Below, in pieces: positions 26,169 to 63,727 of a stretch of 64,000 nt of DNA. The DNA comes from Chiloscyllium plagiosum (taxonomy: Eukaryota), in the NCBI RefSeq assembly GCF_004010195.1, contig NC_057756.1, positions 5,860,257-5,924,256 on the forward strand. Direction: 5' to 3'. Both the position numbers and the translations under genes were made by a program. The notes under the pieces were generated by a model. It was given only the letters and a program-made list of their open reading frames with translations, searched no databases and was not told where the DNA came from. Every line of letters starts with the position of its first letter. Position 1 is the stretch's first letter.

Positions 26169-26461
26169 TGACGCAAATAGATATAATAATCAAGTGACTT
26201 CCAAGCACACATTATGTGCCAATGTCTGATTTTAAAAAAAAGAGAGAAAATGCATACATACTCACGGACTCATTTAGAATATGTCCAAAGTACACACACT
26301 GTCCCTGAGACACATTACAAAATCACACAGCAACATTGCATCGACTGACAGCTACAGTTTGTTAACTACACTCTCATATTCACTGAGCAGAAGCTGACAG
26401 GCATAGATAGATAACCACACTCATGTATTAACATAGCCAAATCTGACAGGTATAAATTGAT

Positions 26462-29112: not shown

Positions 29113-29782
29113 CATAGAGTCATAGAGATGTAAAGCATGGAAAAAGACCCTTCGGTCCAACCCGTCCATGCCGACCAGATATCCCAACCCAATCTAGTCC
29201 CACCTGCCAGCACCCAGCCCATACCCTCCAAACCCTTCCTACTCATATACCCATCCAAATGCCTCTTAAATGTTGCAATTCTACCAGCCTCCACAACATC
29301 CTCTGGCAGCTCATTCCATACACGTACCACCCTCTGTGTGAAAAGGTTGCCCCTTAGGTCTCTTTTATATCTTTCCCCTCTCACCCTAAACCTATGCCCT
29401 CTCGTTCTGGATTCCCCAACCCCAAGGAAAATACTTTGTCTATTTATCCTATCCATGCCCCTCATAATTTTGTAAACCTCTATAAGGTCACCNNNNNNNN
29501 NNNNNNNNNNNNNNNNNNNNNNNNNNNTTTCAAGGAGCCATGAACCTGCACTCCAAGGTCTCTTTGTTCAGCAACACTTCCTAGGACCTTACCATGAAGT
29601 ACATAAGTCCTGCTAAGATTTGGTTTCCCAAAATGCAGCACCTCGCATTTGTCTGAATTAAACTCCATCTGCCACTTCTCAGCCCATTGGCCCATCTGGT
29701 CCAGATCCTGTTGTAATCTGAGGTAACCCTCTTCGCTGTCCACTACACCTCCAATTTTGGTGTCATCTGTAAACTTACCAAC
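29113..29782 (-). mobile_element. CR1 3' fragment (contains a 35-N gap at 29493-29527)
   Basis: KFTDDTKIGGVVDSEEG and FTQRVVRVWNELPE; (ctatgact) tail. Confidence 0.92.
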
Positions 29783-31124
29783 TGTTTTGCACATCAGAAA
29801 CTGACAGGGACAGATTGATAAATAGAACCACTCATTCATATATCAGAAACTGACAGGTACAAATTTACCGTTTCACATAGCAGAAACTGACAGGTTCAGA
29901 TTGATAACTACACTCTCATATTCACAGAGCAGAAATTGACAGGGACATATTGATGATTGCACATGGTAAAAACTAACATAAGTAGATTGGTAACTAAACT
30001 CACATACCTACATCCCAGAAACAGTCAAGGCGTGATCATTGTGTGAATATGTAAATATACTTCTCAATCAGTCTCTATTAGTTTCTAATATGTGGACACA
30101 TGAGTGTTGTTATGAATGTGCACCTGTCAGTCTTTGCTATGTGAATATGCCACCAGAGAGGACAGATTGATCATTAACACATGCACAATGTATATACTGA
30201 CAGGCACAACTGGATATGCAGACTCGCATATTCACCAAATGGGAACTGACTGGTGTGTATCAATGCCGAAACTTATTTCCACGTAGCCACTTAACATCGG
30301 GTAATCACAATCATGGAGCAGTACAGGTGTTGGTGTGTTTCTGGATCTTCCTTAATTGGATGGAATAATTATTTTTAAATCTCCAGACAAAAAGCAGTTC
30401 AGGGCAAGGGTGGAATCTGTTCAAATTGCTGCCTTTAAACAAACAATCCTAATGATTATTAACTGAATACTACATTGATCAGTTAGATATTGTCAGACTT
30501 AGGTAATGTTGATAACTCTCTGTCTTCCTCCAGGCAAATATTTGAAGGATGAAGACAATCTCGTGTTTCTTTGATACACAGCCAAGTGTGACCAACACCT
30601 TCTAACAAACAGCAGTATGTTACCACTACCAGAGTGGAGAATGTCCTTCCCATTGATACTGCACAGATTGAATCAGACTCACATTGAGCTCAATCTCCAG
30701 GTTCAAACCAGGAGCCAAACACCATGAAGGGAAATGCAAGTTTATTGTTTGATTTCCTTCCATTCATAATGTAGACCAATCCATTTCCAATAAGTTTAGG
30801 CATTTATAGCCCATTGATACTTTGAAGGGGGAAGACTGAATCCTCATCCATGATATATACTCAGCAAATGAATCAAATCTACATTTATTAAGAGCATTTT
30901 TAAAGTAACAAACAAGGTTTAAAACAGCAATTCTGCTATGACATGGATTCAACAAACTTACGTGAGATAGTTGTTAAATACAGACATAGAACGAAACTGC
31001 ACTCACAGAAATGAAGAGATTTAACAAAAATAAAGAACGAAACACACTTTCATTTTGTTAACTAATAACTGCAAAGGACAGAATTACTCCATTATCCCAT
31101 ACATAGACACAATAAATCAATTGT

Positions 31125-33257: not shown

Positions 33258-33287
33258 AGAGGCTGATCTTGACTCTGACAACCCAAA

Positions 33288-33328
33288 GGCTCTTTTCAGA
33301 GCCGCTCACAATATCCGAGAAAGAAACT
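33288..33328 (+). terminator. Histone 3' stem-loop plus putative histone downstream element (HDE)
   Basis: GGCTCT-TTTC-AGAGCC at 33288-33303 preceded by ccaaa; purine-rich gagaaaga ~14 nt downstream. Confidence 0.93.
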
Positions 33329-41087: not shown

Positions 41088-41520
41088 ATTCTTAAACCTA
41101 GACAGTTGCGTTATAATATATCATGATACTTCGTTGATTCATCTATCACAGAACAATTTGAGAATCAATTTAAACAACACCAATCCAATCAAATCTGAGG
41201 CCCTGACTTCTCTCTCTTATTTTAAAAAAAGAGTCCCTGACTCTATTTCGGATCCGCAGGTCCCCGACCTGTCAGTGGGAGTCCCTGACTCCCTGAGGTC
41301 CCCGACTCCTCTTTAATCCTTTCTGAAAGAATTCTTACCAAGGCCGATGCTCCTCAGGCTGGCCTGAGATGATGAGCAGCGAGGGGTCGAGTCAACCGCG
41401 ACCTGAATGAGAGGAAAGTCAAACGGATAAAATACATGTGCCTGGTTAGCCGATTCCTCTAAACTCAATAGTGGAGGACTCAAGACTCTTTCACCGCTGC
41501 CTACAATCCGTTCCTGCCAA

Positions 41521-41538
41521 GTCGAAGTCACAACACCA
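41521..41538 (-). promoter_or_regulatory. Retroviral primer binding site, tRNA-His-like
   Basis: TGGTGTTGTGACTTCGAC versus His PBS TGGTGCCGTGACTCGGAT; lies 2 nt after the LTR-terminal CA. Confidence 0.65.
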
Positions 41539-41540
41539 GA

Positions 41541-42248
41541 TGAAGATCTGGACCCCCGGAGGGCGGTGGGTCCATAAATAGTCTGTTCCATAAACAGGTT
41601 CCTGAAGAAGGGCCTGTGCCCGAAACGTCGAATCTCCTGTTCCCTGGATGCTGCCTGACCTGCTGTGCTGTTCCAGCAATAAAGTTTCAACTGTTCCATA
41701 AACAGTCACAACTTAGGTCTGATCCTTTAACACTTTATCACAAATCATCCAGAAACACAGAGGTTAAACACTCCAGTGTTCCTCAGAGGAGCTGCGTACA
41801 TGGCTTAAAACAAAGACATTTTTATACTTTTCTTAAAGAAAGGTACAGGCCATAATTGTATAGTACGTTCAGACAGTTACCAATAAACTTACAAAATAAT
41901 CTTAACTGACAGCTACACGACCCAATGATGTTTCCTAGGAACCAACTTTGTTTTCTAACACTTAAGCCACCCTTATCTCACAAACCGAGTCTTTGCACCA
42001 TCACTTGAAGGTCAGTTAGGATGGCCTGTAATGTCTTATCTAATCTAGTTATTTCTACGCTGTAAAGTATTGTCTGCTAATCTTTGTTGAGGCAGACTGT
42101 GGTTAGTCAATTATGCAGCTATAGCACGATTAAAAGCAATTTTATGCAGCTTTTAGCAAAATTGTCAATTGGCAGCCTAGAAGCCATTTTGTCATATTAT
42201 TTGCATTGTATTTCCACCTAACTTAGTAAGAGCATGTTGTTCCTGACA
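41541..42248 (-). repeat. Putative ERV 5' LTR
   Basis: TG...CA ends, minus-strand gtataaaaa at 41819-41827, adjacent PBS; outer boundary inferred. Confidence 0.6.
41598..41690 (+). mobile_element. Minimal HHR cassette (core 41602-41629)
   Basis: CTGAAGA-a-GGGC-ctgt-GCCC-GAAA-CGTC; 15-bp TSD ctgttccataaacag (41583-41597 and 41691-41705). Confidence 0.9.
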
Positions 42249-42664
42249 ACAACTGGTTATCTCAGCCTGTATTCAAGATTTCACACATACACACAAACCC
42301 TCTCTCATACACATGCTCTCTCTCAGGCATGCATACCCCTGCCCCCCCATCACACCCATGCACACACACACTCTCCCACACATACACACACTTTCTCACT
42401 CCCTGTCATGCATGCACACACACACATACATATATCTATGGGTAAATTTGCATTTGGAGAATTGTATTTGCAGATATTCCATTTTGTTCAAAAAGCACAC
42501 AATCAATAGGCATTTAATATTTTTTATAATCCATGTGACATTTTATAAGTTACTCCTCTGGAAACAGAACCAGTGATTCAAGGTTGGAATAAATACAGAC
42601 TCTAACCGCACACCTTTAATGCATCGTCTGAGCTGAGTTGTCACTTTTTTTTGTAAAGCCATAA

Positions 42665-43260
42665 ATTGTGGATAAATGTATGGTTATCCACTTTGGTGGC
42701 AATAACAGGAAGGCAGACTACTACCTCAATGGAATCAATTTATGTAAAGAGGCAGTACAGAGGGATCTGGGTGTTCTTGTACACCAGTCAATGAAGGCAA
42801 GCATGCAGGTACAGCAGGTAGTGAAGAAGGCTAATAGCATGCTGGCCTTCATAACAAGAGGAATTGAGTATAGAAGCAAAGAGGTGCTTCTGCAGCTGTA
42901 CAGGGCCCTGGTGAGACCACACCTGGAGTACTGTGTGCAGTTCTGGTCTCCAAATTTGAGGAAAGACATTCTGGCTATTGAAGGAGTGCAGCGTAGATTT
43001 AGGACAGAGCTCAGAAGAAACTTCTTCACCCAGAGAGTGGTGGCTGTGTGGAATGCTCTGCCCCAGAGGGCAGTGGAGGCCCACTCTCTGGATTCATTTA
43101 AGAAAGAGATGGATAGAGCTCTCAAAGATAGTGGAATCAAGGGTTATGGAGATAAGGCAGGAACAGGATACTGATTAGGAATGATCAGCCATGATTATAT
43201 TGAACGGCAGTGCAAGCTCGAAGGGCTGAATGGCCTACTCCTGCACCTATTGTCTATTGT
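42665..43260 (+). mobile_element. CR1 3' fragment with internal deletion
   Basis: ORF 42668-43174 jumps from VQRRF directly to RTELRRNFFTQRV. Confidence 0.9.
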
Positions 43261-43281
43261 CTTATCTCGGGAATTTAACTT

Positions 43282-43974
43282 TGTGAGAAGCGAAGCTCAC
43301 TCACTCAATAATTTCAGTCCGAGACAAGATCTGAATCAGTAGTGTCATTTATTTTGCTCCTGCAAGAGAGGTGTTGTGTCCACTGTCCACAAGGCAGGGA
43401 CACATACACTGAATTCAACTAGTACACAATATTTATGTAATTTTGTTCCTATTCTTTCATCCCATTGCTCCTCCCCTGTTTGCATCTCCCACTTCTCTTA
43501 GACCGGCGCCCATTACTCTTGTTTATTTCTTGCCTTGTCTGTGACAAAATGCTTATTTCTGACCTCACAAGGCCTTTTGACCACATCCTGCCGTGGTCCA
43601 TTGTTTGGTATATCCTCCTTCACTACCATCTATTCCCCTTACTTGTTATGATCTCATGACCTCTTGATTGTGGTTTGTTCTTGTTTTTGCAGAAGCGGGA
43701 AACAGATGCTTATAACTACTGTTTGTACAGGCGTATCTAGCTTAACCCCCTCCACTCACAGCACCTTATCTATTTGTGTGTAACATCTACCATTGTTTGC
43801 AGGCACGTTTCACTCTTGTATGCTAATACAAAAACTATGTGTATTTCCTTCACATAGTTTTCATTCTTGTTGACTCAGCTCTTGGCTGAAACAGTTATAC
43901 AATGGTGTGAGTTCATTTAGCTTGCACAAGTAATTATGATTGCAGAAGTAACACTACTTTACCTATATCCCACA
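43282..43974 (-). mobile_element. Solo LTR
   Basis: tgtgag...cccaca ends, 4-bp TSD actt (43278-43281 and 43975-43978), minus-strand AATAAA near 43350. Confidence 0.75.
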
Positions 43975-44133
43975 ACTTGAAAGAAGTTCTGGGACTGACA
44001 TATTAATAAACCGAAACCTGCAACCCATGCTGAAAGATGAAAGACTTAACAGCAATCTAGATGTGTTCAATACATCACATCATTTGTACGACACTATGAT
44101 CTTTTGCTATAAATTCTGTGTCCTATGATCCTG

Positions 44134-44162
44134 CTGATGAAGGAACAGCGCTCCGAAAGCTT
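44134..44162 (+). ncRNA. Minimal hammerhead motif, family B, in a pLTR extending to ~44225
   Basis: CTGATGA-a-GGAaC-agc-GCTCC-GAAA-GCTT, followed by the same tail as the 15673 element. Confidence 0.7.
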
Positions 44163-44249
44163 GCAATTCCAAACAAACCTGTTGGACTGTTACCTGGTGT
44201 TGGGTGATTTTTTTTTGTTAAACTTAAATCTTATTCACAGAATAGCAAA

Positions 44250-44745
44250 ACCTGCGCATGCGCAGTACCATGTGTGAGTGGAGCATGCGCGACGTCACTC
44301 ATGGCGACGGGGGAGTAATTTCCCCCGCGGGTCCGGGGCTGATAATGGGCGCCGGGTCTGACAGGACGAGGGGGCCGCCGGATGGACAGAAAAGTGTCGT
44401 ATTGAGTAAGCCGCGTGGCCGAGCGCGACTTTCCGGTGTCGAAATCGCCGTCGCCATCTTAATTGGTAACGACGGGCGATAGGGCGCAGGCGCGGGGAAC
44501 CTAACGTGTGTTAGGTGAGGCGCATGCGCAGCGGCTGTGTCCGCGGGCCGGAGATCACATGACACCGGCTGAGACGCTGATAGGTTTGTTTAAAATCACG
44601 AGCTTGCCAACGGCCGGCCCTTCGTCACGTGACAAGTGACCCCCGACCAGAATTAATGGACAGAGAGACATCGAGCAAATAGTGTGAGTGCGGCGCGCTG
44701 AACATTTGTTGTTGTTCGGATTCGGTAGCAGGCCAGCCCCGACGT
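44250..44745. promoter_or_regulatory. CpG island / housekeeping-type promoter
   Basis: Dense CpG; NRF1 (44253-44264, 44520-44530), CRE-like (44291-44297), ETS (44431-44436), YY1 (44452-44460), E-boxes (44555-44563, GTCACGTGAC 44624-44633). Confidence 0.85.
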
Positions 44746-44869
44746 TAACTGGGGCTAGTCATTAGTGTGAAAGGTTGAGAGGGAGCGGGGTTCTTTAACA
44801 AGCCAGTCTGGTGAAGGCCTGAGCAGGACTGGACTGGACTGGATTCCAGTTCAGGGGAAACTGAGGACG

Positions 44870-45705
44870 GCAGCTGCTGCTGGAAAAGCACAGCATCCGG
44901 GGGGGGGGCAGGAAAATCGGCGTTCCCGGCAAAAACCCTGNNNNNNNNNNNNNNNNNNNNNNNNNNNNNNNNNNNNNNNNNNNNNNNNNNNNNNNNNNNN
45001 NNNNNNNNNNNNNNNNNNNNNNNNNNNNNNNNNNNNNNNNNNNNNNNNNNNNNNNNNNNNNNNNNNNNNNNNNNNNNNNNNNNNNNNNNNNNNNNNNNNN
45101 NNNNNNNNNNNNNNNNNNNNNNNNNNNNNNNNNNNNNNNNNNNNNNNNNNNNNNNNNNNNNNNNNNNNNNNNNNNNNNNNNNNNNNNNNNNNNNNNNNNN
45201 NNNNNNNNNNNNNNNNNNNNNNNNNNNNNNNNNNNNNNNNNNNNNNNNNNNNNNNNNNNNNNNNNNNNNNNNNNNNNNNNNNNNNNNNNNNNNNNNNNNN
45301 NNNNNNNNNNNNNNNNNNNNNNNNNNNNNNNNNNNGTCATGAGGACAGTGCTGAGCTGGAAGGTTGGAACTGGGGTGAGGTGGGGGAAGGGGAAATGAGG
45401 AAACTGGTGAAGTCCACATTGATGCCCTGGGATTGAAGTGTTCTGAGGCAGAAGATGAGGCGTTCTTCCTCCAGGCGTCTGGTGGTGAGGGAGCGGTGGT
45501 GGAGGAGGCCCAGGACCTGGATAGGTGGAAAGGAAGATAGGCAGGTAGGACCTGGGGGTTGCAGTGAGAGAGAGAGAGAGACTTAGAGATTCTTGTAGAG
45601 GGAGGAGGAAAACTTCTTCAAGGCAGGCATCCTTGCAAGAGGATTCGCAGTAGGTCAGGCAGCACCCGAGGAGCAGGGCAGTCGAGTATAAGCCCTTCAT
45701 CAGAA
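44870..45705 (-). mobile_element. Internally deleted Penelope with two same-orientation pLTR remnants (spans a 395-N gap, 44941-45335)
   Basis: pLTR pieces at ~44875-44940 and ~45650-45705; GIY-YIG tail between them. Confidence 0.75.
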
Positions 45706-45799
45706 ATGTGGGGCTATCCCAGCACTGCACGCTTTGACCTTAATTTCAATTAATGAAGCTGAACAAGTAGTTGCAATGTCAGTGGGGGAATAATTTCCA

Positions 45800-48180
45800 G
45801 ACTGAAATTGTAACTGTTACGAAATGGTAGAGAACAAGAATTGACATGGAATCAAAGTTCTAAACAGGCAAAAGATGGGTTTGAAGAAGATTAGATGTTA
45901 TTTGGCCAGAGCAGGCTGGGAGCAGATTCCTTTAATGTGAATGTGTATCAGATCAGTGGGATATATTTAAGAAGGAAATTGGGAGAGTTCCAATAAAGTC
46001 ACAGGGTGGTAAGAATAAATCTTGTGAACCCTGGTTACACAGGATTGAATAAAGAGAAAAGTGGAAGTATTTGGCAAGTACCAAAAGTTCAAAATAACAG
46101 CAGCCCTAAGAGAAGTAAAGAATGTGTCGAGCAAAAAGGTAGTGTGAAAGGATAATGGCAGGCAAAATGAAGGAAAGTGCTAAGTTATTTTACAATAAAA
46201 GCCAACCTTTTATGGTCCACAGTAGTAAACTGAGCATGAAGCCAGATGACGTAGGTTGGAATCAAAACGGATACTTTGTCAGTGTTCACCAGTGAAATGG
46301 ATAGCATGGGTATATAAATTAGGAAGAAGGCCCATGATATACATAAAACAAATTAGCATAGAAAGAGTGATCTGATTTGTCTTGCAGATGATGTAAAAGC
46401 AGAAATCTCCAGGCCCAGATGCAATCCACCTCAGGCTATTGAGTGAGGCAAAAGCAAAAATAGCAGTGACACTAACAATTTTTAATTGTTTTATGACCTC
46501 AGGAGAGATGCCAAAAGACTGGCAATCAGCTAATGTGATATCTTTATTCAGGTCCAGGCCAGTCAGCCCCACCTCAGTGGTGGGGTAACTATTATCAGCA
46601 ATTTTGAGGGACAGAATTAATCTGCCCTTGGAGAGGAAGGAATTAGTCAAGAACGGGGGCACGGTGGCTCAGTGTAAGTACTGCTGCCTCACAGCTCCAG
46701 GGACTCGTTTTCGATTCCATCCTCGGGCGACTGTGTGTGTAGTTTGCATGTTCTCCCTGTGTCTGCATGGGTTTCCTCCCACTGTCCAAAGATGTGCAAG
46801 TTAGGTGAATTGGCCATGCTAATTTGCCCATAGTGTTCAGGGATGTGTCGGTTCGGTGCATTATTCAGGGGTAAATGTAGAGTAATAGGGAATGTGTTTG
46901 GATGGGTGATTTGTTGGGCTGAAAGGCCTGTTTCCACACTGTAGGGATTTGACAATTCTATAATTTTAGGGATGGTTTTGTTAATGTGAGGTCATGTCTG
47001 ACCAGCTTGATTTTTATTTTGAAGAGGTAATCAGGTGTGTTGATGTGGGCAATGCATTCAATATAATCTACTTGAACTTTACCAAGACCTTTGATAAAAT
47101 CCCACGTAGAAGACTGATTGCAGAAGGAAGAGTCCATAATAACCAAGGAAATTTGTCTGATTGGATCCAAAACTGGCTGACTGGTAGGAAGCAAACTGTG
47201 GCATGTTTTTGTGACTAGGAGCCCGTGTTTTGAGGGACCTTTCCTGTTTTTGGTATAAATAAACCCATCTGAATGAATGTTGGAGGGTTAATCAGTAAGT
47301 TTGCAGGTGGTAAATAGTGTGGAGGACAGCCTTCTCTGGCGCAGAGCGATTGTGCAATTTAGGCCAATACTGTCTGAAATGTGAAAGAATGAGAAATATC
47401 TAGTATGCTGAAGAGAATTGACAAAGTAGAATGGATATTTCATCATGTGGAAGAGTTCACAATGAAAGGTTATAATTTACGATAAGGTTTGGTATATTTA
47501 ACAGACAAGGAGAAATTACTTAGAAGGTTGTGAACCTGTGGAATTCACTATACCGGAATAATGTGAATGGTGCAACATTGAGTAAATTTAAGGAGGTAAT
47601 TTTAAAAAAAAATAATAATGGGTTGAAGGTTTATGGGCAGCAGGCAGAAGAGTGAAGTTAAGGTGAGATGAGATCAGCCATATTTTATGAATTTTATGAT
47701 TGAATTGCTAGTCCTCCTCCCAGTTCTTATGTTCTTAGATTACAGGAGGATATAGACAGGCTGATCAGTAGCAATTGGAATTCAATCCAGATAAGTGTGA
47801 GGTGATGCACTTGGGCAGAGCAAACGAGTCAATGGAATTCATGACAAATAGCTTTGATCCTCAGTCCTGCAGGATTCTGAGAGGCCTTGGTGTGCATGTC
47901 CACCCATTCCTTAAGGTAAGAGGACAGATAGATAAAGGGCTTAAAAGGCACTTGAGACAATTGGTTAGGTCACAGCTAAACTGTTGTGTGCAGTTCTGGA
48001 TTCCACATGATAGGAGGGATGTGATTGCACTGTAGAGTGCACAGAGGAGCTTTACCAGAATGCTATCTGGGCTGGCGAGTTTTAGTTATGAAGAAAAGTT
48101 GGATAGACTGGGATTGTTCTCTTTGGGGCAGAGAAGATTGAGAGGGATGTGGTCGCAATGTACAAATTACGAAAGGCGTA
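45800..48180 (+). mobile_element. Old decayed CR1 ORF2 with nested insertions
   Basis: KSPGPD, IYLNFTKTFDKIPRRRL, EFNPDKCEVMHLG, CVQFW remnants. Confidence 0.78.
46654..46950 (+). mobile_element. HE1-type V-SINE
   Basis: Head, core and tail. Confidence 0.85.
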
Positions 48181-48744
48181 ACAGAATTTGAATCTGGATT
48201 CCCAAAACACTCCCTGAATCTCTGAATTAATAGTCCCACATTGATGCCATTAAACTAGCACATTCTCCAGACGATTGACCAACCAACAATATAGGAACTG
48301 TGACATTGTTCTTTGTTTTCGGTAAGGAGACCTTTTATTAGACAGATGAGGGTAGGTGTGCCATTGTTGCTGCTTCTGCCTATGTTGATGCTTGGTGCTG
48401 TGTCCAGTTTCATTCCTATGGACTTTCTTGTCGTGGTTTGATATTTTATAAAATACTTTAATAACAGAGCACTTGGCAAACAGTGGCTGGGCTGGATAGT
48501 CAGCATGGATTTATAAAAGGGAAATCATGCTTGGCAAAGGATGAGGTAGAGTTGATTTTGGGGGAGGTGTGGTTGGAGTGTTTCTTTGACAAGGTTTTTG
48601 ACAAATTCCAACAGAAATATAATAAGTGATTGGACGTTGGATAGTTGTATTGAAATCTATTGAAGACCATTTACAGGTAGAAAGAAAGAGTAGGAATACA
48701 TGGTCTTCATCTGAATGGCAGTGGGGTGCCATCAGACAATAAAA

Positions 48745-50700
48745 TGTACGAGTAGAATTAGGCTATTCATGCCACTGAGTCTGATCTGCCATTTAATTGT
48801 GGCCTATATTTCTTAATTCCATTCTTCTGCCATATCCCCATAACTTTTGATCCCCTTACTAAGCAAGAACCTATCTGTCTTAAATACAGTCACTGATTTG
48901 GCCTCCACGGAGTCAGCATCCTCTGGCTGAAGAAATTCCTCCTCATCTCAGTTCTAAAGGGTTGTCCAGTCACCCTGTGGCGGTGCCCTTAGGTTCTAGT
49001 CTCCTGCTTGTGGAATCCTCATCTCCAGGTACGCTGTATCCAGGCCTCTGAGTAGTCTGTAAGTTTCAGTCAGATCGTCATTCATTCTTCTGAACTCCAA
49101 GTACAAACCCAGAGTCCTCAACTGCTCCTCATATGTCAGGCCCTTCATCCCCGGGGCCTGTGGACCCCCTCCAGTACCAGCAATTCTTTTCTTAGAAAAA
49201 TAGGTCTTAAGACTGCTCACAATATCCAAATGTGGTCTGTCCAGGGCTTTACACAGCTTCAGCAGTTCTTTGTTGTATTCTAGCCCTCTTGAAATGGAAC
49301 GGTGGCACAGTGGTTAGCACTGCTGCTTCAGAGCACCAGGTACAAGGGTTCAAGTCCCGCCTTGGGTGACACTGTGGACTTTGCACATTCTCCCCAAGTC
49401 TGCGTGGGTTTCCTCAGAGTGCTCTGGTTTCCTCCCACAATGCAAAGATGTGCAGGTCAGGTGAATTGGCCATGCTAAATTGCCCGTAGTGACAGGTCAT
49501 TTGTTAGGGGTAATGAATCTGTGGGTTACTCTTCGGAGGATTGGTGTGGACTTGTTGTGCCGAAGGGCCTGTTCGCATACTTTGCTTTTGCCTTATTAAC
49601 TGCTATCTGAACCCACATGTTAACATTAAGAAAATGCTCAACAGGGCCCCCAGGGTATCTTGCAATACAGATTTTCAAAGTCATTTCTCACTTGGAAAAT
49701 ATTCAAGGTCTCTGATATTCATACCAATGTGTATAACCTTACACTTTGCCACATTTATATTTCAAATGCCACTACTTTACCCATTCTGCCAGCCTGTCCA
49801 GGTCCTTCTGCAGCTTGCCTGCTTCCTCAATACCACCATTAGAGGTCTTTATGTCACCTCTAATCTTAGCAGCAATGTCCTGAGTTCTTTCTTCCAGACC
49901 ATTGTGTGACCTGAGTCATTGTGGTCCCAATACAGACCCCGTGGAACACTACTGGTCACTAGCTGCTAACCTGAAAGAGAACCTACTCTCTACCTTCTGC
50001 CAGTCAGCCAATCCTTCTCTCCATGCTCGTACCTTGCCCCTAACAGAGTTTTTATCTAGTTTAGCAGCCTCCTATGCAGCCCCTTATCAAAGCCTTTTGG
50101 AAATCCGAATGGGTCTCGACCACTGGCTGTCCTTCGTCTAGATCAGAGTGGTGCTGGAAAAGCACAGCAGGTCAGACAGCATCTGAGGAGCAGGAAAATC
50201 GACGTTTCGAGCAAAAGATTCCTGATGAAGGGCTTTTGCCCGAAACGTCGACTTTCCTGATCCTTGGATGCTGTCTGACCTGCTGTGCCTTTCCAACACA
50301 GCTCTGACCAAACTCTGGTTTCCAGCATCTGCAGTCCTCACTTTTGCCTGTCCTTTGAGGAGGTAATGACCAAGGTAGACAAAGAATTCTAACATCTGTC
50401 AAGGATGGCCTGCAGTGATTCCTTGACAATTCTCTCCATTATTTCATGTAGAAATCTGGGTGTAGTCCGTCTGATCTGTGTAATTTATCCGCCTTCTGAC
50501 TTTTCAACTTCCCCAGCGCTTTCTCCTTATTAATGGCCATTAGACTCATCTGACTCTCCAAGTTGTGGTATGTTGGTGGTGGTATTCCACTGTGAAAACT
50601 GAAGAGTATGTATTCAGTTTGTCAATCGTTTCTTTGTCCCCCATGACTAATTCTGCAGCCTCATTTTCCAGTGCCCACTGTTGCCTCTCCCTTAACTCTT
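48745..50700 (-). mobile_element. Decayed CR1 with nested SINE (49300-49575) and HHR element
   Basis: PGMKGLTYEEQLRTLGLY and CR1 tail on the minus strand. Confidence 0.78.
50140..50347. mobile_element. Palindromic pLTR/HHR element (core 50222-50249, +)
   Basis: Inverted arms; CTGATGA-a-GGGC-tttt-GCCC-GAAA-CGTC. Confidence 0.85.
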
Positions 50701-50889
50701 GCAGCCATCTTTTATATTACTAGCGAGCTTACTGTCACATTTTGCCATCTCTTATTGCTCTTTTTGTGTTCCTCTGCTGTTTTTTAAAGGCTTCCCCATC
50801 CTGTCCTTGTTGATAGGTTGTGTAACCTCTGAGATTTGGTTCTCAGCCCTGATCCCCTTGCAGCTAGGGATAAGTGCTAGAACCCAAGC

Positions 50890-52530
50890 TATTTACTGAA
50901 TATATTAACGATTTAGATAAGGGGAATTAAGTGTAATATCTTCACCTTAGCAGATGGCACAAAGCTGTGCGGGAGGGCAAGCTGTGAGGAGGATGCAAAG
51001 ATGCTTCAGTGTAATTTGGACAAGCTGAATGAGTGGGAAAGTGCCTGGCACATGCAGTGTAATGTTGATAAATGTGAGTTTTAGTATCCTTGTTTTGAGG
51101 AAGGATATTCTTGCAATAGAAGGAATGTAGCCAAGCTTTACTGGGCTGATTGCTGGATGACACAGTTGACCTCTGAGAGGTGGTGGGTGAGGGTTGGGGG
51201 ATCTCATTTGAAACATAAAATCGTAACAGGATTAGGAAGGTCGATGCAGGAAGGTTATCCCTGATGCCAGGGGAGTCCAGAACAGGGATTACAGACTAAG
51301 TTTACAGGGTAAACCATTTAGGTCTAAGGTAAGGAGAAATTTCTTCTGTGATAAGCCTGTGGGATGTGTTTTTTACTCATTTCACAGGATGAGGGCATCG
51401 CTGGGTAACCAGCATTTATTGTCCACCCCATCAGGCAGTTAAGATTTAGCCACATTGCTGTGGGTCTGGGAGTCACATGTAGACCACACCAGGTAAGGAC
51501 AACCGTTTCCTTTCCTAAAGGACATTAATGAACCAGGTTGGTTTTTACAACGATTGACAATGGATTCCTGGTCATCACAGGCTCTTGATTTCAGATTTTT
51601 ATTGAATTCCAATTCCCATCCTCTGCTGTGGCAGAGTCGAACCCCGGTCCCCAGAACATTACCTGGGTCTCTGGGTTAAGAGTCCAGCGATAATACCACT
51701 AGGTCATTGCCTCCCCATTTACTCCCACAGAATCAGTCAATTTCAAGTAGGAGTTAGATATAGCATTTGGATGAAGGAATCAAAGTATATGGGCAGGTAA
51801 ACAAGAACATGCTCTTTGAGTCGGATGGTCAGCCATGATCATAGTGATTGGCAAAGCAGGGCCGAAAGGCCCCCTCTTGCTGTGATTTTCTATATTTCCT
51901 GACAGGGAGCCAGGAAGAAACTTCTCCCCTTATTGGAGGGGTGGACTCATTCCTGATAAAGGACTAATGCCCGAAACATCGACTCTCCTGCTTTTCCAGC
52001 ACCACACTGTTCAACTCTGATCTTCAGCATCTGCAGTCCTCCCTTTCTCCTCGCTAAAGATTTAAAGTCAGGGAAAGCAGTTTTAGAAGGGATGTGAGGC
52101 ACATGTTGTTGAAGGATGTTGTGAAACTTGAAAGGGTTCAGGATAGATTTACAAGGATGTTGCCAGGGTTGGAAGATTTGAACTATAGTGAGGCTGAATA
52201 AACTGGGGCTGTGTTTGCTGGTGCGTTGGAGGCTGAGGGATGACCTGATAGATGTTTACAAAATCATGAGGGGCGTCAAAAGGATAAATGGACAGCCTTT
52301 TCCCTGGGGTCGTGGAGTCCAGAACTAGAGGACAAAAGTTTAGGGTGAGGGAAAAAATATCAAAGGGACAACCTTTTCATGCAGAGGGTGGAATGAGCTG
52401 CCAGAGGAAGTTGTGGAAGGTGGTGTAATTTCAGCATTTAAAAGGCATCTAGATGAGTATGTGAATAGGAAGGGTTTAGAGGGATATGGGCCAAATGTTG
52501 GCAGATGCAACTAGATCTGTTTGGCATGGA
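50890..52530 (+). mobile_element. Several decayed CR1 3' fragments
   Basis: ADGTKL, FTRMLPGLEDL and WNELPEEVVE remnants; pLTR remnant at ~51945-52052. Confidence 0.75.
51367..51717 (-). mobile_element. Deu-domain SINE
   Basis: tRNA-like head, ccttacctggtgtggtctacatgtgactc core, and tail matching the 18870-18935 LINE end. Confidence 0.75.
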
Positions 52531-52861
52531 CGAGGTTGGTGGGAATATGGAACTCCCTGTCTGTGAAGGTAGTTGGTTCAGAAACAGTCATAACATTGAA
52601 GAAGTATCCCAAAGAGTCTAGGCCAGTGCTGGAAAATGGGAGAATAGTTAAGTGGCTGTTTCTGATTGGTACGGCCTTCGTGTACTGAAGACCCTCTCTG
52701 TGTTTGTCGACCTCTATGACTGTCGGAACTTGTACAGCTCTATTTACCCTATATGTCCTTTGTCCTCCTTGGAGGGTGAATGTAATGTTGCAACTAAAAT
52801 CCGCGATCCCTCAAACCATTTTGATAAAAGCCCCACACCATCCACTCAGGGACCCTCGCAT

Positions 52862-54085
52862 TGTTAAAGTAGATATTTGAGACGGCCCAGGGAATCCCTT
52901 GTGGACTCAGACCTGTATGCCTCTCATGGTTCGTCCCAGAGATCGTACTCTTTGGAAGTCTGGAATGAATAAAAACCTCTCCCAGACAGTTTAATTTTAG
53001 TTATCTCCTTTGCTTGCTAATAGCATCACTGTTACAATGTAACACTGATGCCTATACGCTAAACTAACTAGGTTCTAGTACCAACTCAAGTGCCTGAGCA
53101 GGCTACTCATGTTCTGATATAAAGTGGCTTCCTTTATACAAAAGTTTACAAAAACACTGCATGTTCTTAATTAGACAGGTAACAGTGAAACAATAACTTG
53201 TAAGAAAGGTTAATAGACAGGTCTGTGTAAGCTTGACTAATCACTCCTACAGGCCCTAAGCCATTCATTAGATGGGGGAAAGTTGAAACTTTATTGCTGG
53301 AACAGCACAGCAGGTCAGGCAGCATCCAGGGAACAGGAGATTCGACGTTTCGGGCACAGGCCCTTCTTCAGGAATTAGATGGGGGAAAGCATACCCAGCC
53401 AAGTTAGGCGCCTGTTAGCGAGATAAACTCCTATCATAAAGAGGTACCAGTCTGAGCTAAATGGAGCGTTCATAAGGTAACCTTGCACAGCTCACATGTC
53501 AGATAGAATTGTTTTACAAAATGGCTTCTTAGCAAGGAGGGCAAACCTTTGACCATAAAACGGCTTCCTGACACATTGTGCCAGAATTGCTTCAATGTTA
53601 GGCCGAGAATAATTTCTAAGCTTGGAGCAGACTCCTGCTTTTTAAACACTGAATCATTCTGTACCTGCGGTTGAGATGTTACCATAAGATTGCATTTAAA
53701 ACTGATTCATTAGTCTTTGAATTGAACATGCTTTCTTTTCAGGGTTGTGATTTAAATTCAAATAAGGCATAAGATCTGATTAGTTAGAATTGACGGTGGG
53801 GAAGTCTGTAAGGTCTGTAGAGTGGTCTGCAAGAACAGCAAGTAAGTTCAAGCTTCATTAATATGATCTTTTACAGAGTTTGTATTTAATAACTGGTATT
53901 GGCTACTCTATCATGCAAAAAGCAATTAAGTTCAGCTGTGAATGCTATCACTTGGTGTCCTGTTTACAGATTCAGTGATTTTCAAGCAAATTTCTTAATT
54001 GCTTTAGAGCATCCTGTTCTAGAATTCAGCATTACATTTTAGTCTAAATGTTTAAAGACCAATTTTAAGGCTGTAGACTTTCTCA
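52862..54085 (-). mobile_element. Probable solo LTR (~1.2 kb)
   Basis: Imperfect inverted ends tgttaaagt / actttctca, near-TSD gcat/ccat, minus-strand tgtataaagg at 53131-53140. Confidence 0.5.
53283..53373 (-). mobile_element. Minimal HHR cassette (core 53344-53371)
   Basis: Exact reverse complement of 41600-41690; 16-bp TSD attagatgggggaaag (53267-53282 and 53374-53389). Confidence 0.9.
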
Positions 54086-56544: not shown

Positions 56545-58205
56545 TAACCAAACTCATCTCTGCAAACCTTGACACTGTCCTGTCCTCCAGAAACTCTCCA
56601 CCCACATTCAGGACACCACCCATGCTCTCCACCACCTGCATGACTTTTGTTTCCCCAGCCCCCAACGCCTTATCTTCACAATGGACATCCAGTCCTTGGA
56701 CACATCGATCCACCATGACGAAGACCTCCAAGCCCTCTCTTCCTCTCCTGCTGACCCAACAAATTCCCTTCCACCGACACTCCCATTCAACTAGCTAAAC
56801 TGATCTTCCCCCTCAACTTCTCCTTGCAATCCTTCCACAGCCTCCAGACCAAAGGTGTAGGTGTAGGCAGCAGCATGGGCCCCAGCTCTGCAGGTATGTG
56901 AAGCAGTCCATCTTTTTGCAGTTGCACCAGCACCATTCCCCACCTTTTTCTCCACTACATCAATGACTGTATCCCTCATGCTCCTACCAGGAGGTTGAAC
57001 AGTTCATCAACTACATAAACTTTTTCTACCCAACCTCAAGTTCACCTGGACCATGTCAGAACCTCCCTCCCATTTCTGGTGACCAACAAACCCACAGACT
57101 CCCACAGCTACCTGGACTACGCCTCCTCCCACCCTTCCTCCTGTAAAAATACTATCCCTTATTCCCATTCCTCCACCACATATGCTTCCAGGAGAACCAA
57201 TTCCACCGTACAACATCCAAAGATTGCAATTTCCCCTCCCATGTCATTGACGGTGCCCTCTACTTCCTGCACCTCTGCTCTCAAACCCTACCCTTCCAAC
57301 TACAACAAGGACAGTACCCCCATGGTCCTCATTTTCCACCCCTCCAACCTTTGGATACATCGCATCATCCTCTGCCATTTCCTCCAGCCACAAACAAACC
57401 CCACCACCAGATATATTTCTCTCCCTACCCTATCTGAGTTTCAGAGAGACCATTCCCTCTGCAACTCACTTGTCTGGTCCACCCTCCCCTCCAGGCACCT
57501 TGCCCTGCTGTCGCAAGAAGTGCAAAACCTCTGCCCACACCTCCTGCCTCACCTCCGTCCAAGGCCCCAAAGGATCTTTCCACATCCATCCGAAATTTAC
57601 CTGTACTTCCACACACGTCATCCACTGCATCCATTGCACCCAATGTGGCCCTCTCTACACTGAGGAGACAGGACGCCAACTTGCAGATCATTTCAAAGAA
57701 CATTTCTGGGACACCTGCACTAACCAACCCCACTGCCCTGTGGCTGAACACTTTAACTCCCCCTCCCACTCTGCCAAGGACGTGCAGGACCTAGGCCACC
57801 TCCATTGCCAAACCCTAACTACCCATCACCTGGAGGAAGAACACCTCCTCTTCTGCCTTGGGACCCTCCAGCCACATGGGATCAATGTGGATTTCACCAG
57901 TTTCCTCATTTATGCTCCTCCCCATCTTTTTCCATTCCTAAATTTCCAACTTAGCACTGCCCTCTTGAATGGTCCTACCTGTCCATCTTCCTTACCACCT
58001 ATCTGCTTCACCCTCCACTCTGACCTATCATTTTCAGTCACATCTTCATCACTTTCCCAGCTACCCTCTCACCCTGCCCCCACACACACTTATCTGTCAG
58101 CAGCACCCCCCCCCACCAAGGTTATGCCCAAAATGTCGACTTGCCTGCTCCTGGGATGCTGCCTGACCGGCTGTGCTTCTCTAGCACCACACACTTTTGA
58201 CTCTA
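56545..58205 (+). mobile_element. Penelope-like element (RT, GIY-YIG, decayed pLTR)
   Basis: KPTDSHSYLDYASSHP; FTCTSTHVIHCIHCTQCGPLYTEETG; LGTLQPHGINVDF. Confidence 0.9.
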
Positions 58206-59654
58206 GACATCCAGGGTTCTCTGGGCTTGTTATAGAGTCACCGGTTTAGAGCCCTACAGCAAAAAGGCCCTTCGACCCATTTTAGTCTGTGCCAATCGAA
58301 AGCAACTACGTACCTATAATTTTCCAGCGCTTGGCCTATAGCCTAGTATGCCTTTGCATCTCAAGGGTACATCAAAATACTTCAAAGTTTCTACATTTCA
58401 CCGTAACGGGAACACATCAGGCCGTTCCCGCCTCTGGTGTCTGTCTGTCTGTGTTCTCCCTGTGTCTGCATTGGTTTTGTCCGGATGCTTGTTTCCCCTC
58501 CTCTCTGTCCAGGGATGTGCAGGCTAGATGGATTAACTATGGTGAAAGTGGGATTAGTGTGGGAGGCTGAGTTCTGGCAGGTTGGTGCAAACTAGTTGAA
58601 CCGAATCTCCTCTTCCTGGGATTCTGTGACTTTGATCCAGCACTACGTTGTCACTTGTTGGACCAACTACATGTTGATATAAAAACCTCTCCTGAATACA
58701 TTTCAAGAAATTTGCCCCGTCTAAACCCTTTAAACTATGACTACCCAGCTAATGCTGGGGAAATCCTGTAACCTAATCACCCTATTGTTCTTTTTGCACA
58801 CCTCAGTGAATTGTCTACAGTTGTTTTCCCTCTGCATTATTCATTCCATTTCTCTTTTGATTGTGACGTTATACTGACCAGTTCTGAACCATTTTTATTT
58901 GTTGTAATTTATTCTGTACAGCCCTAATATTAACTGATTCGGTCCCCTGAGCTACTGCCTGACTTGTTGACTTTCCAGCATTTTCTTTGTTTCAGATTTG
59001 CAGCAGCTGCAATATTTTACTGCTCTTTTTGTTCCAGGCGTTGCTCAGAGCCAACTGATGCCCAGTTGCATCAGCATGGGTGTTGGTCAGAGTTTGGTGT
59101 GTGGTCTCCACTGTAGGTTCATGTTAATTGCAGAATCAGAGTGATTACAATAGAGAAGGAGAATACTGTGCCTGTGCTGGTTTTCTCCAAAAGCAAATCA
59201 GCGATTCCTCTCACTTGCCTTTCAATTTTCTCTTCGGAGGTATCTCCAATTCCCTTTTGAAAGTCTTTGTTATCTCAGATTGAGCAGGAGTGGAGCTGGA
59301 GGAGAAGCTGCAGAGTTTACCCGGAGGTCTTTCAAACCCAGTTGGGCCCAGCAATTTCCAATGTGAAGTTCTCCAAGGAAGCTGGGCTCTAGGGAAGATC
59401 GGGTTGCTAAATAAACACTGTCCATACAGCGTATATTTAAAACAAAATATTGTTTGGGGAGTATGTATTTCTTCAGTTGCTGCAGAGGCAATGGTGCTAA
59501 TTCTCCAAAATTAATCAGATTCTGGAAAGCTTCCATCCCTTTGTAAAATAACAGATACAATTCCTCTATTAAAGGAGGGAGGAGGACAGACAACAGGAAA
59601 CTATAGGCTAGTTAGTTTGATCTGCTATGTCTGGGGTGAGAATCAAATCATTTG

Positions 59655-60379: not shown

Positions 60380-62670
60380 ACGAGGAATTAAGAGGGCTAA
60401 TGGGGTCATGAAATATCTTTAGCAAACAAGGTTGAGGAAAATCCTAAAGCCTTTTCTCGTATATAAGAAGGAAGAAGAAGGGTTTGTCTACTCAAGGACA
60501 AAGGAGGAAAGTTATGGGTGAGATTCTTAATGAGTACTTTGCATCAGTATTCACTGAGGAGAGGGGCAATAGCAGATGTTGAGGTCAAGGATAGATGTTT
60601 AATTACTCTAGGTCAAGTTGGTATTCTAAAAGGCATTAAGTGAACAAATCCCCAAGTCCAGATGGGTTCTATCCCAAGTTATTTAGGGAAGCAAGAGAAG
60701 AAATAGCTGGGGCCTTAACTGATATCTTTGCAACATCCTTCAACACGAATGAGGCCCCAGAGAACTCGAGAATTGTTAATGTTGTCCCCTTGTTTAAGAA
60801 GGGTAGTAGGGATAAGCCAGATAATGATAGACTGGTGAGCCTGATGTCAGTGATAGGGAAGTTGCTGGAGAAAATATTGAGGTATAGGATCTACTTACTT
60901 TTGGAACAAAATGGGCTTATCAGTGATAGGCAACATGGTTTTGTGCAGTGAGGGTCATATCTTACCAACTTAATAGAATTCTTTGAAGAAGTGACAAAGT
61001 TGATTGAGGGAAGGGCTCTAGATGTCATATACATGGACTTCAGTGAGGTGTTTGATAAGCGTCCCCACAGTAGGCTGACTGAGAAAGTGAAGTTGCATGG
61101 GGTCCAGAGTGTACTAGGTAAATGGATAGAGAACTGGCTGGGCAGCAGGAGATGGAGTAGCAGTGGAAGGGAGTTTCTCAAAATGGAGAATTGTGACCAG
61201 TAGTGTTCCACAGGAATCCATGTTGGGATCGTTTACTTGTAGTATGCATAATTGATCTGGAGGAAGGTATAGGTGGTCTGATTAGCAAGTTTGCTGATGA
61301 TACTAAGATTGGTGGAGTAGCAGATAGTGAAGGGGTCTATCAGAATGCAGCAGAATTTAGGTAGATTGGAGAGTTGTGCTGAGGAATGGCAGATGAAGTT
61401 CATCCGGGCAAATGCGAGGTGATGCATTTTTGGAAGATCCAGTTCAAGAGCAAACTATATAGTAAATGGAAAAGCCCTGGGGAAAATTGATATGCAGAGA
61501 AATCAGGTGCATTGTACCCTGAGGTGGCAACGCAGGTCAATAAGAGCGGTCAAGCAGGCCGACAGCATGTTTTCTTTCATTGGACAGGGTATTGAGTCCA
61601 ACAGTTGGCAGGTCAAGTTACAATTGTATAAGACTTTGGTTTGGCCACATTTGGAATACTATGTACAGTTCTGGTTGCCACATTACCAAAAGGATGTGGA
61701 TGCTTTGGAGAGGGTACAATGGAGGTTCACCAGGATGTTGCCCGATATGAAGGGCGCTAGCTATGAAGAAAGGTTGAGTAGATTAGGATTATTTTCATTA
61801 AAAACAGTTTAAGGTGGACCTGATTGAGATCAACTAGGGGTGATATGGTGGTTCAGTGGTTAGCACTGCTGCCTCACAGCACCAGTGATCCAGGTTCAAT
61901 TCCTGCCTCGGGCAACTGTCTGTGTGAAGTTTGCATGTTGTCCCCGTGTCTGGGTGGGTTTGCTCCGGTTTCCCCCCTCAGTCCAAAGGTGTGCAGGCTA
62001 GGTGAATTTGTCATGCTAAATTGCCCGTAGTGTTGGGTGTAGGGGAGTAGGTCTGGGTGGGTTGCTCTTTGGAGGGTGATTGTGGACTTTTTGGGCCGAA
62101 GGGCCTGTTTCCACACTGTAGGCAATCTAATCTTAAAAAAAATAGAAAGTGAGGACTGCAGACGCTGGAGCTCAGAGTCGAGTGTAGTGCTGGAAAATGA
62201 GGAAGGGCTTATGCCCAAAACGTCGATTCTCCTCCTCGAATGCTGCTTGACCCATGCTTTTCCGGCGCAAAAACTTTTGATTCGGGGAACCTGGTTGAAT
62301 TATACAAAATCATGAGGGGGCAGACAGGGTGGCTAGCAAGAAGCTTTTTCTCCAGAGTGGGGGACTCAATGACATGAGGTCATGAGTTCAAGGTGAGGGG
62401 GGGGAAGAGTTTAAAGGAGATAAGTGTGTGGGAGAGCCCTTTGCACAGACTGGTGGGTACCTGGAACGCATTGCCAGCTGAAGTGGGACAGTCAGGCACG
62501 ATAGCGTCATTTCAAATGTATCGAGACAGATACATGAATGGGCAGGAAGCAGAGGAAATAGACCCTTAGAAAATAAGTGACAGGTTTAGGTAGAGGAACT
62601 GGTTCGGCACAGGCTTGGAGGGCAAAAGGGGTCTGCTCCTGTGCTGTAATTTTCTTTACTCTGTTTTAGA
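60380..62670 (+). mobile_element. CR1 ORF2 3' part with nested HE1 SINE (61838-62131) and pLTR (62143-62282)
   Basis: KSPSPDG, VIYMDFSEVFDK, FADDTKIG and PHLEYYVQFW motifs. Confidence 0.9.
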
Positions 62671-63727
62671 ATCTGGATTGGCTCAAAGTTTCCGTAAAGA
62701 TTTTTAGCTCGGATGCTGGCTGTCGTACTTGAGCAGGGTCCTAATGCTGCAGCTTTTGTGCGTGTTCAGTTCAGGATCTGGTTAGTGGGTATGGTACACT
62801 TCTGTGGTGCGTTCACTGTTTTATGTTCTTTCGACCATCCCATCCAGGAATGGGAGTTGATTGTTGGTTTCCTCCTTTTCAAAGAATTCAATAAGGTTTG
62901 TGAGGCACGACCTGCCCTTCACAAAACCATGCTGACTATCCTTGATCACATTATTCCTATCCAGATGTGCATAAATCCTATGAACATCTTAAAAAAAAAA
63001 TAGAAAGTGAGGACTGCAGACGCTGGAGCTCAGAGTCAAGTGTAGTGCTGGAAAACGAGGAAGGGCTTATGCCCAAAACGTCGATTCTCCTCCTCGAATG
63101 CTGCTTGACCAATGCTTTTCCGGCGCAAAAACTCGATTCGGGGAACATGGTTCAATTATACAAAATCATGAGGGGGCAGACAGGGTGGCTAGCAAGAAGC
63201 TTTTTCTCCAGAGTGGGGGACTCAATGACATGAAGTCATGAGTTCAAGGTGAGGGGGGGAAGAGTTTAAAGGAGATACGTGTGTGGGAGAGCTCTTTACA
63301 CAGTGGTGGGTGCCTGGAACGCATTGCCAGCTGAAGTGGGACAGTCGGGCACGATAGCGTCATTTCAAAAGTATCGAGACAGATACATGAATGGGCAGGA
63401 AGCAGAGGAAATAGCTCCTTAGAAAATAAGTGACCGGTTTAGGTAGAGGATCTGGTTCGGCACAGGCTTGGAGGGCAAAAGGGGTCTGCTCCTGTGCTGT
63501 AATTTTCTTTACTCTGTTTTAGAATCTGGATTGGCTCAAAGTTTCCGTAAAGATTTTTAGCTCGGATGCTGGCTGTCGTACTTGAGCAGGGTCCTAATGC
63601 TGCAGCTTTTGTGCGTGTTCAGTGCAGGATCTGGTTAGTGGGTATGGTACACTTCTGTGGTGCGTTTACTGTTTTATGTTCTTTCGACCATCCCATCCAG
63701 GAATGGGAGTTGATTGTTGGTTTCCTC
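62130..63727 (+). repeat. ~745-bp direct duplication (62130-62874 and 62986-63727)
   Basis: Near-identical copies separated by a 111-bp spacer. Confidence 0.95.

What the first reader, a model, noticed from the sequence alone, without database searches (positions are those of the whole stretch)
41583..53389. Two identical ~91-nt hammerhead-only cassettes, each with its own long TSD
Seen: 41600-41690 (+) and 53283-53373 (-) are exact reverse complements. Each starts about 2-3 nt before a CUGAAGA core, contains stem II GGGC/GCCC and GAAACGUC, and ends at aataaagtttcaa. They have different TSDs (15 bp and 16 bp), and both TSDs begin with 'ct', which continues the element. Both sit in LTR-like sequence. 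Known: PLE pseudo-LTRs carry minimal hammerheads. Inference: this is a young, fixed-boundary, non-autonomous ribozyme mini-retroelement mobilised by PLE machinery, possibly primed by microhomology. It is much smaller than a typical retrozyme.
Basis: partly seen in the sequence, partly recalled or inferred. Interest (0 to 1): 0.75.

Follow-up and report, generated by a model that had tools for sequence, protein, structure and literature searches.

The report
Short stubs of young Penelope retrotransposon
The two identical 91-base inserts are real, recent insertions of the end piece of a very abundant Penelope-type jumping gene, likely dead-end copies of the first 95 bases of its RNA and not a self-spreading ribozyme, and their regular ends give testable clues to how these elements insert.

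Summary
Observation confirmed: 94 identical bases, TSDs of 15 and 16 bp, a minimal hammerhead motif. But the cassette is the end of a young RT + GIY-YIG Penelope-like element: its 81-nt core occurs exactly 11,899 times in this genome, also right behind endonuclease ORFs (13 of 29 ORF loci). In 100 consecutive arms, 3' ends fall at two sites about 36 nt apart (39 at +93-97, 56 at +126-139: the known PLE 'tail'); 5' ends pile up at -2..+7 (55) beside an initiator-like TCATTC, none at the hammerhead cut. Head-to-head pairs join one end of each kind (77 of 77). Junction microhomology exceeds chance (89 of 209 have 2 nt or more; 16% expected). Best reading: target-primed copying that starts at the first internal site and runs off the RNA 5' end; the transcription start is inferred, the cap-G signal only suggestive. 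No separate lineage was found, but self-copying of stubs is not excluded. Cleavage and polymorphism are untested or inconclusive. The scan noted this pattern before in this and other genomes (535 notes, at least 45 genomes).

The parts
41583..41597 (+). Copy A, left target-site duplication (15 bp)
41598..41598 (+). One extra G between TSD and element, in the place of element position +1
   Evidence: row L091
41599..41692 (+). Copy A: PLE pseudo-LTR stub, element positions +2..+95, ending at 3' site 1 (no tail); last 2 nt shared with the TSD
41599..41633 (+). Minimal type I hammerhead motif: core 41602-41608, extra A 41609, stem II 41610-41621, GAAAC-GUC 41622-41629, predicted cut after 41629, stem I 3' arm 41630-41633
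   Evidence: sequence; fold of the twin copy; activity untested
41678..41683 (+). AATAAA of the young subfamily; older window copies lack it
   Evidence: T-run loose ends nearby in RNA reads
41691..41705 (+). Copy A, right target-site duplication
41088..42283 (.). Host repeat of copy A; other copies occur as same-strand pairs 3-9 kb apart (LTR-like)
53374..53389 (-). Copy B, TSD on the element's 5' side (16 bp); its last 2 nt equal element +1,+2
   Evidence: row L103
53279..53375 (-). Copy B: PLE pseudo-LTR stub, element positions +1..+97, ending at 3' site 1; last 4 nt shared with the TSD; predicted hammerhead cut after 53344
53267..53282 (-). Copy B, TSD on the element's 3' side
   Evidence: single target in 11 of 11 paralogues
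52858..54085 (.). Host dispersed repeat of copy B (LTR status not shown)

Best explanation
The two cassettes are independent recent insertions of the terminal (pseudo-LTR) piece of a high-copy Penelope-like retrotransposon with RT and GIY-YIG domains, likely made when the element's enzyme primes reverse transcription at the first of two internal start sites and runs off the RNA 5' end about 95 bases upstream. Shown: identity with the ends of ORF-bearing copies, two 3' end sites about 36 nt apart, a 5' end hot spot at -2..+7, TSDs mostly 10-17 bp, 1-4 nt junction microhomology, and head-to-head pairs that always join a site-1 arm to a site-2 arm. Inferred: (1) the endonuclease nicks both target strands about 15 bp apart; (2) a nicked end pairs over 1-4 nt with the RNA at site 1 (+93-97) or site 2 (+126-139); (3) position +1, the A of an initiator-like TCATTC and the first base of hammerhead stem I, is the transcription start inside the upstream pseudo-LTR, so initiation in the RNA's leader gives a short run-off cDNA, whereas initiation in the 3' pseudo-LTR gives the longer, randomly truncated copies; (4) if only one nick is extended a single stub results (the window pair); if both are, one at each site, a hairpin results. 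The hammerhead is a passenger in these copies: templates were uncleaved. Tail-less 91-mers are likely dead ends.
For: 11,899 exact cores, 20,214 exact 21-mers, 0 for reversed controls. Core directly behind a GIY-YIG ORF in 13 of 29 ORF loci; locus L189 holds RT-like and GIY-YIG-like frames upstream of the same end (RVT_1 E 5e-6, GIY-YIG E 2e-4). 100 consecutive arms chosen only by a 3' 21-mer: 3' ends 39 at +93-97, 3 at +100, 56 at +126-139, 2 longer; 5' ends 55 in the 10 positions -2..+7 (5.5 per nt) against 0.46 per nt inside and 0.12 per nt just upstream; 0 at +33, 3 within +31..+35. Inverted events: 77 of 77 classifiable ones are site 1 + site 2, none alike; TSD in 74 of 86 rows, 72 of them 13-17 bp. 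Overlap of 2 nt or more at 89 of 209 junctions against 16% in a simulated null. G before +1 in 23 of 42 simple copies (28% expected, p 2e-4) but 5 of 21 before +2. PMC11167929 (main text parts 1-2 of 4 read): two internal RT starts define the tail, both strands are cut and extended, hammerhead mutants insert normally. PMC2377424 (passages): Penelope starts inside the upstream pLTR from an internal promoter.
Against: No RNA 5' end was observed: the one raw RNA run (about 2% read, 182 reads) showed no pile-up of starts, and 60 reads ran on upstream of +1. The G signal drops to 13 of 32 (p 0.09) when junctions explicable as tiny fold-backs or duplications are removed; the +1 and +2 sets were picked by eye (44 and 24 loci fetched). 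+1 is also the edge of hammerhead stem I, so a structure-linked stop fits equally. Both Pfam scores lie just under the curated cut-offs and no intact full-length ORF was found. PMC11167929 found initiation without homology in vitro and no strand difference in start site; here 59 of 209 junctions have no overlap. Four of the 77 pairs belong to one passenger family and are not independent. Counts come from contigs C1-C2 only.
Confidence: 0.62

Rival explanations
1. Same element and priming, but the 5' hot spot is an RT stop or template switch at the outer edge of the folded hammerhead (or another RNA-processing end) on a longer RNA, not a transcription start.
For: +1 is the first base of stem I; 60 RNA reads continue upstream of +1; near-palindromic bases around +1..+12 give ready fold-back junctions; cap-G test inconclusive under strict filtering.
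Against: An RT pause would be expected on entering the structure from its 3' side (+36, +24), where no pile-up is seen (inference); the fold is weak (z -0.87); G excess is specific to +1; no AG acceptor precedes +1 (sequence).
Confidence: 0.2
2. One reading: stubs carry an internal promoter, are transcribed and are recopied in trans as a SINE-like mini-element.
For: Short copies outnumber long ones (85 of 100 arms start at -2 or inside); family RNA exists; a passenger RNA ending in the same pseudo-LTR has spread to 298 places, so trans-mobilisation works. A template copied from +1 to an internal site leaves no flank trace, so the lack of shared flanks (0 among 92) cannot exclude this.
Against: No diagnostic difference from ORF-bearing copies. 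A tail-less 91-mer cannot template site-2 ends (56 of 100 arms) or any hairpin (77 of 77 need site 2); it also loses the predicted partner strands around site 1 (fold not significant). In Anolis the RNA needed sequence well past the start sites (PMC11167929).
Confidence: 0.12
3. Ordinary random 5' truncation; the pair share ends by chance.
For: 45 of 100 arms end outside the hot spot.
Against: 12-fold higher end rate per base at -2..+7 than inside, 45-fold higher than just upstream.
Confidence: 0.04
4. A retrozyme: unit length set by hammerhead self-cleavage, spreading through circular RNA.
For: A type I minimal hammerhead motif is present; PLEs are proposed mobilisers of retrozymes (PMC7229834, passages).
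Against: The predicted cut lies inside the unit (+32/+33) with 0 of 100 5' ends at +33; only 7 of 281 arms sit in tandem context; helix III has no loop, the PLE minimal form reported inactive as monomer (PMC4209133).
Confidence: 0.02

Closest known systems
Short/5'-truncated insertions and solo pLTRs of EN+ Penelope-like elements with an optional 30-40-bp tail and inverted pLTR (PMC8557442 Fig. 2 text; PMC3846280)
   Same: RT + C-terminal GIY-YIG parent, pLTR with minimal hammerhead, tail at one end only, head-to-head inversions, TSDs.
   Different: Here a sharp 5' hot spot, about 20,000 near-identical young ends, TSDs of 13-17 bp (8-10 bp in the Adineta examples), and the one-tail rule counted at 77 of 77.
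Poseidon PAc of Anolis carolinensis, in vitro TPRT (PMC11167929)
   Same: Two internal RT start sites bounding the tail; both strands cut and extended; hammerhead cleavage not needed.
   Different: There the paper reports no homology at initiation and no strand preference for a site; here genomic junctions show 1-4 nt overlap above chance and strict pairing of unlike sites. Linker CxxxxCxxC suggests the Neptune clade (motif recalled; no tree built).
Minimal hammerheads of metazoan PLEs (PMC4209133)
   Same: Loopless palindromic helix III, extra base between 9 and 10.1, 4-bp helix I, thousands of single genomic motifs ascribed to truncated PLEs.
   Different: Helix II is 4 bp here; near-zero sequence variation in the young subfamily.
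Non-LTR retrozymes of animals (PMC7229834)
   Same: Small, non-coding, type I hammerhead, long TSDs.
   Different: Retrozymes are 150-450-bp tandem repeats with canonical ribozymes that set the unit and yield circular RNA; these stubs are single or inverted and their ends ignore the cut site.
Non-autonomous PLEs such as MRC1 (PMC8557442)
   Same: 3' similarity to an autonomous family, mobilised in trans.
   Different: MRC1-type elements have their own body and pLTR tandems; the 91-mer has no sequence of its own. The 298-copy passenger noted in passing fits this class better.

Membership tests
EN+ Penelope-like element (fragment) | [quoted passage not shown] | tested here: met
   L189 frames hit RVT_1 (E 5e-6) and GIY-YIG (E 2e-4), both just under Pfam cut-offs; core follows the EN ORF in 13 of 29 loci
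EN+ Penelope-like element (fragment) | Optional 30-40-bp tail at one end | tested here: met
   3' ends at +93-97 and +126-139
EN+ Penelope-like element (fragment) | Inverted and partial-tandem pLTR structures with TSD | tested here: met
   153 of 281 arms have an inverted partner, 7 tandem; TSD in 74 of 86 inverted rows
EN+ Penelope-like element (fragment) | Minimal hammerhead motif in the pLTR | tested here: met
   sequence and fold, compared with PMC4209133; no Rfam hit
EN+ Penelope-like element (fragment) | RT groups with PLE clades (Neptune) in a tree; intact single ORF | not tested
   no tree built; no intact full-length ORF among loci fetched
Non-LTR retrozyme | Unit boundaries at the hammerhead cleavage site | tested here: not met
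   0 of 100 5' ends at +33, 3 within +31..+35
Non-LTR retrozyme | Head-to-tail tandem repeats of 150-450 bp | tested here: not met
   7 of 281 arms in tandem context; unit 91-131 nt
Non-LTR retrozyme | Self-cleavage and abundant circular RNA | not testable with these tools
   needs in vitro assay and northern blot
Non-autonomous (SINE-like) PLE family | One fixed pair of ends shared by most copies | tested here: not met
   26 of 100 arms have window-like ends; 56 carry the tail
Non-autonomous (SINE-like) PLE family | Own sequence lineage distinct from the autonomous partner | tested here: not met
   core identical in short and ORF-bearing copies; very young family, so low power
Non-autonomous (SINE-like) PLE family | Stubs are themselves transcribed and used as templates | tested here: inconclusive
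   RNA reads cannot be assigned to loci; no shared flanks among 92 short copies, which does not discriminate

The most novel reading that the evidence does not exclude
Penelope-like elements make a 'strong-stop-like' run-off cDNA of their capped RNA leader as their main product, and insert as a two-site machine: each of the two staggered nicks is assigned a different RT start site 36 nt apart on the RNA. That single rule would explain the tail, the inverted pLTR and the thousands of solitary hammerheads in animal genomes; in its boldest form, tail-bearing 130-nt stubs with the internal promoter also recopy themselves, making them the smallest retroelements known.
Probability: 0.45. Interest if true: 0.65.

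Novelty: new member of a known kind. Interest (0 to 1): 0.36.

Why it matters
As an object the 91-mer is ordinary debris of an active Penelope-like family. Its value is as a record: PMC8557442 names the origin of PLE tandem/inverted structures and tails as unexplained, and the end map here (two 3' sites, one of each per hairpin, a 5' hot spot, short microhomology) makes sharp predictions for the existing in vitro system. It also warns that counts of 'solitary hammerhead ribozymes' in such genomes are largely insertion stubs. About 20,000 near-identical young insertions could serve as population markers if polymorphic.

Tried and rejected
Rfam scan: no hammerhead model hit. DNA search of the own genome with the 91-mer: nothing, because common words are skipped; pattern search used instead. 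Polymorphism: contigs of three other runs laid on site B only did not span the flanks; one joint skipping 130 bases in run X3 has other letters between and is likely a paralogue; inconclusive. No RNA holder was listed by the run index (no evidence either way); the raw single-cell poly(A) run cannot show starts. Poly(A) cleavage as the cause of site 1: rejected, since inserts carry no A-tail and an older window copy without AATAAA ends at the same place. Splice acceptor at +1: no AG there. Shared flanks among 92 short copies: none. Monomer and doubled 91-mer folds did not give the active hammerhead form; such folding is not a test of activity. Rows dropped: 4 arms with no partner end found, 9 of 86 inverted rows with one arm ending elsewhere (two of them second readings of loci L270 and L307), 60 of 121 simple arms without a TSD of 9 bp or more (many extend beyond the search range). 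Literature: searches for PLE + hammerhead + shark, non-autonomous + TSD, internal initiation/microhomology, pLTR/tail/inverted, Adineta, promoter, twin priming, shark burst showed no paper stating the one-of-each-site rule or the 5' hot spot; subscription papers and Repbase entries are not covered, figures were not seen, and the text supplements of PMC11167929 held none of four search terms (its Fig. S2 could bear on this).
Full report
Observation. The two stretches are identical over 91 nt and the match extends to 94. Copy A has a 15-bp TSD plus one extra G, copy B a 16-bp TSD. The right TSD overlaps the element's continuation by 2 nt (A) and 4 nt (B). The hammerhead motif has the core CUGAAGA, an extra A, a 4-bp stem II, a loopless palindromic helix III and a 4-bp stem I; this is the minimal PLE form of PMC4209133 (parts 1-2 of 4 read), reported there as inactive as a monomer and weak as a dimer. 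Rfam has no hit. Paralogues of the host repeats lack the insert: 11 of 11 at B with a clean single target, 9 of 9 aligned at A with a poor local alignment and one gap. The host of A behaves like an LTR (pairs 3-9 kb apart); that of B is a dispersed repeat. The genome is 3.56 Gb; that it is a shark rests on my recall of its SINEs, not on a call.

What it belongs to. The 81-nt core occurs exactly 11,899 times and a 21-nt 3' motif 20,214 times, with 0 for reversed controls, so two copies in a window are expected in about 2% of windows. Some copies extend upstream through a pyrimidine-rich pseudo-LTR into the end of an ORF with a GIY-YIG motif. Of 29 loci found with that ORF end, 13 carry the exact core right behind it. 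L189 holds an RT-like frame and a GIY-YIG-like frame, broken, ahead of the same end (both scores just below Pfam cut-offs). No intact full-length ORF was found. Older subfamilies with the same layout lie in the window.

End map. Numbering +1 at the A of TCATTC, I fetched all of the first 100 matches of the 3' 21-mer. 3' ends: 39 at +93-97 (site 1, as in the window), 3 at +100, 56 at +126-139 (site 2), 2 longer. 5' ends: 55 at -2..+7, 30 at +8..+72, 15 upstream; none at +33, the base after the predicted cut, and 3 within two bases of it. 26 arms have both ends like the window pair. The 36-nt difference between the sites is the PLE tail (PMC8557442, PMC3846280, passages), which PMC11167929 (parts 1-2 of 4 read) traced to two internal RT start sites.

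Inverted events. Among 281 distinct arms from all loci fetched, 153 have an inverted partner, 121 are simple, 7 tandem (this pool is enriched by my searches and is no frequency estimate). Of 86 inverted rows (84 loci), 77 have both arms at a known site and all 77 join site 1 to site 2; 74 rows have a TSD, 72 of 13-17 bp. Four of the 77 belong to one passenger family. Junction overlap is 2 nt or more at 89 of 209 primed junctions (null 16%; mean 1.48 against 0.67), and zero at 59. This supports short pairing, or a nicking preference that mimics it; the two were not separated.

The 5' hot spot. If +1 is a capped start, RT should often add a base opposite the cap, seen as G before +1. From the lists I fetched the rows that did not look like fold-backs (44 and 24 loci). 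G precedes +1 in 23 of 42 simple copies (28% expected, p 2e-4) and +2 in 5 of 21; after removing junctions explicable as tiny fold-backs or duplications, 13 of 32 (p 0.09). This is suggestive only. Drosophila Penelope starts inside its upstream pLTR from an internal promoter (PMC2377424, passages), and an Adineta pLTR has an Inr-like motif (PMC3846280). Against: +1 is also the edge of stem I, and RNA reads gave no start signal, 60 of them running on upstream (a poly(A) single-cell run, about 2% read, one sample).

Mechanism. Shown: parentage, two 3' sites, 5' hot spot, TSDs, microhomology excess, unlike-site pairing. Inferred: staggered double nick, priming at an internal site of the RNA leader, run-off at the transcription start, repair giving a single stub or a hairpin. 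The cut site lies inside every stub, so templates were uncleaved, in line with the hammerhead mutants of PMC11167929. A tail-less 91-mer cannot be the template of site-2 ends or hairpins; no shared flanks exist among 92 short simple copies (39 site 1, 52 site 2) and 69 of 83 scored have a perfect core. Recopying of stubs from an internal promoter would leave no trace and is not excluded; a 298-copy passenger RNA shows that trans-mobilisation occurs in this family.

Comparison and verdict. It is a fragment class of an EN+ PLE and fails the retrozyme tests (ends, tandem units; PMC7229834, passages). Tail, inversions and solitary minimal hammerheads are published; the strict one-of-each rule and the 5' hot spot were not found in eight library searches (PMC6155905 seen as passages, the rest as listings unless named above). 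The scan's own notes hold 535 findings with these words in at least 45 genomes, several with the same reading; none near this place. They are unchecked notes; I had the two-site and start-site reading before looking, and ran the cap and asymmetry counts afterwards. Verdict: real, young, ordinary as an object, moderately useful as mechanistic evidence. Interest 0.36.

Noticed in passing
L319-L338 (e.g. G000:C1:1861914-1864940); first seen in L008, L020, L082, L083: A true non-autonomous passenger of this family: older-subfamily pLTR, about 1.3 kb of captured AT-rich DNA, an inverted young pLTR, then a direct young pLTR. A 27-mer of the captured part occurs exactly 298 times. Of 20 copies, 6 end at site 1 and 14 at site 2; 4 share at least 1,500 nt upstream, the others are 5'-truncated, many joined to pieces of the PLE ORF; 13 have a candidate TSD of 9-15 bp.
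   Followed up: partly
window 53278-53295 (-), RNA run X22: The young subfamily has gained AATAAA just before site 1; 30 and 9 RNA reads have T-run loose ends at 53281 and 53284 (consensus agreement about 0.6), with a 2:1 strand bias, so stubs may act as poly(A) signals for host or element transcripts.
   Followed up: no
window 3795-4012: Older-subfamily head-to-head insertion with a 15-bp TSD, tail on one arm only; similar hairpins at about 7864-8023 and 50152-50298.
   Followed up: partly
window 57019-58249 (+): Decayed PLE RT/GIY-YIG ORF of an older family, 57% identical over 188 aa to the young family's C-terminal frame, followed by a pLTR at 58125-58186.
   Followed up: partly
window 33283-33328 (+): Histone 3' stem-loop match (31.8 bits, gathering 34; E 3e-5), suggesting a histone gene or pseudogene upstream.
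   Followed up: no
window 26316-30264: Degenerate ~49-nt repeat array, 60-79% identity, in two blocks.
   Followed up: no
window 62191-63578: Local direct duplication with 853-nt spacing, 95% identical over 300 nt, each unit with a decayed pLTR.
   Followed up: no
window 41583-41597: TSD A has inverted-repeat ends (first and last 5 nt complementary), so the target could form a small hairpin.
   Followed up: no
L133, L134, L137, L138, L144: ORF-bearing copies about 97% identical in the endonuclease region end in the older pLTR variant, so the AATAAA end is a recent change or a recombinant within one lineage.
   Followed up: no
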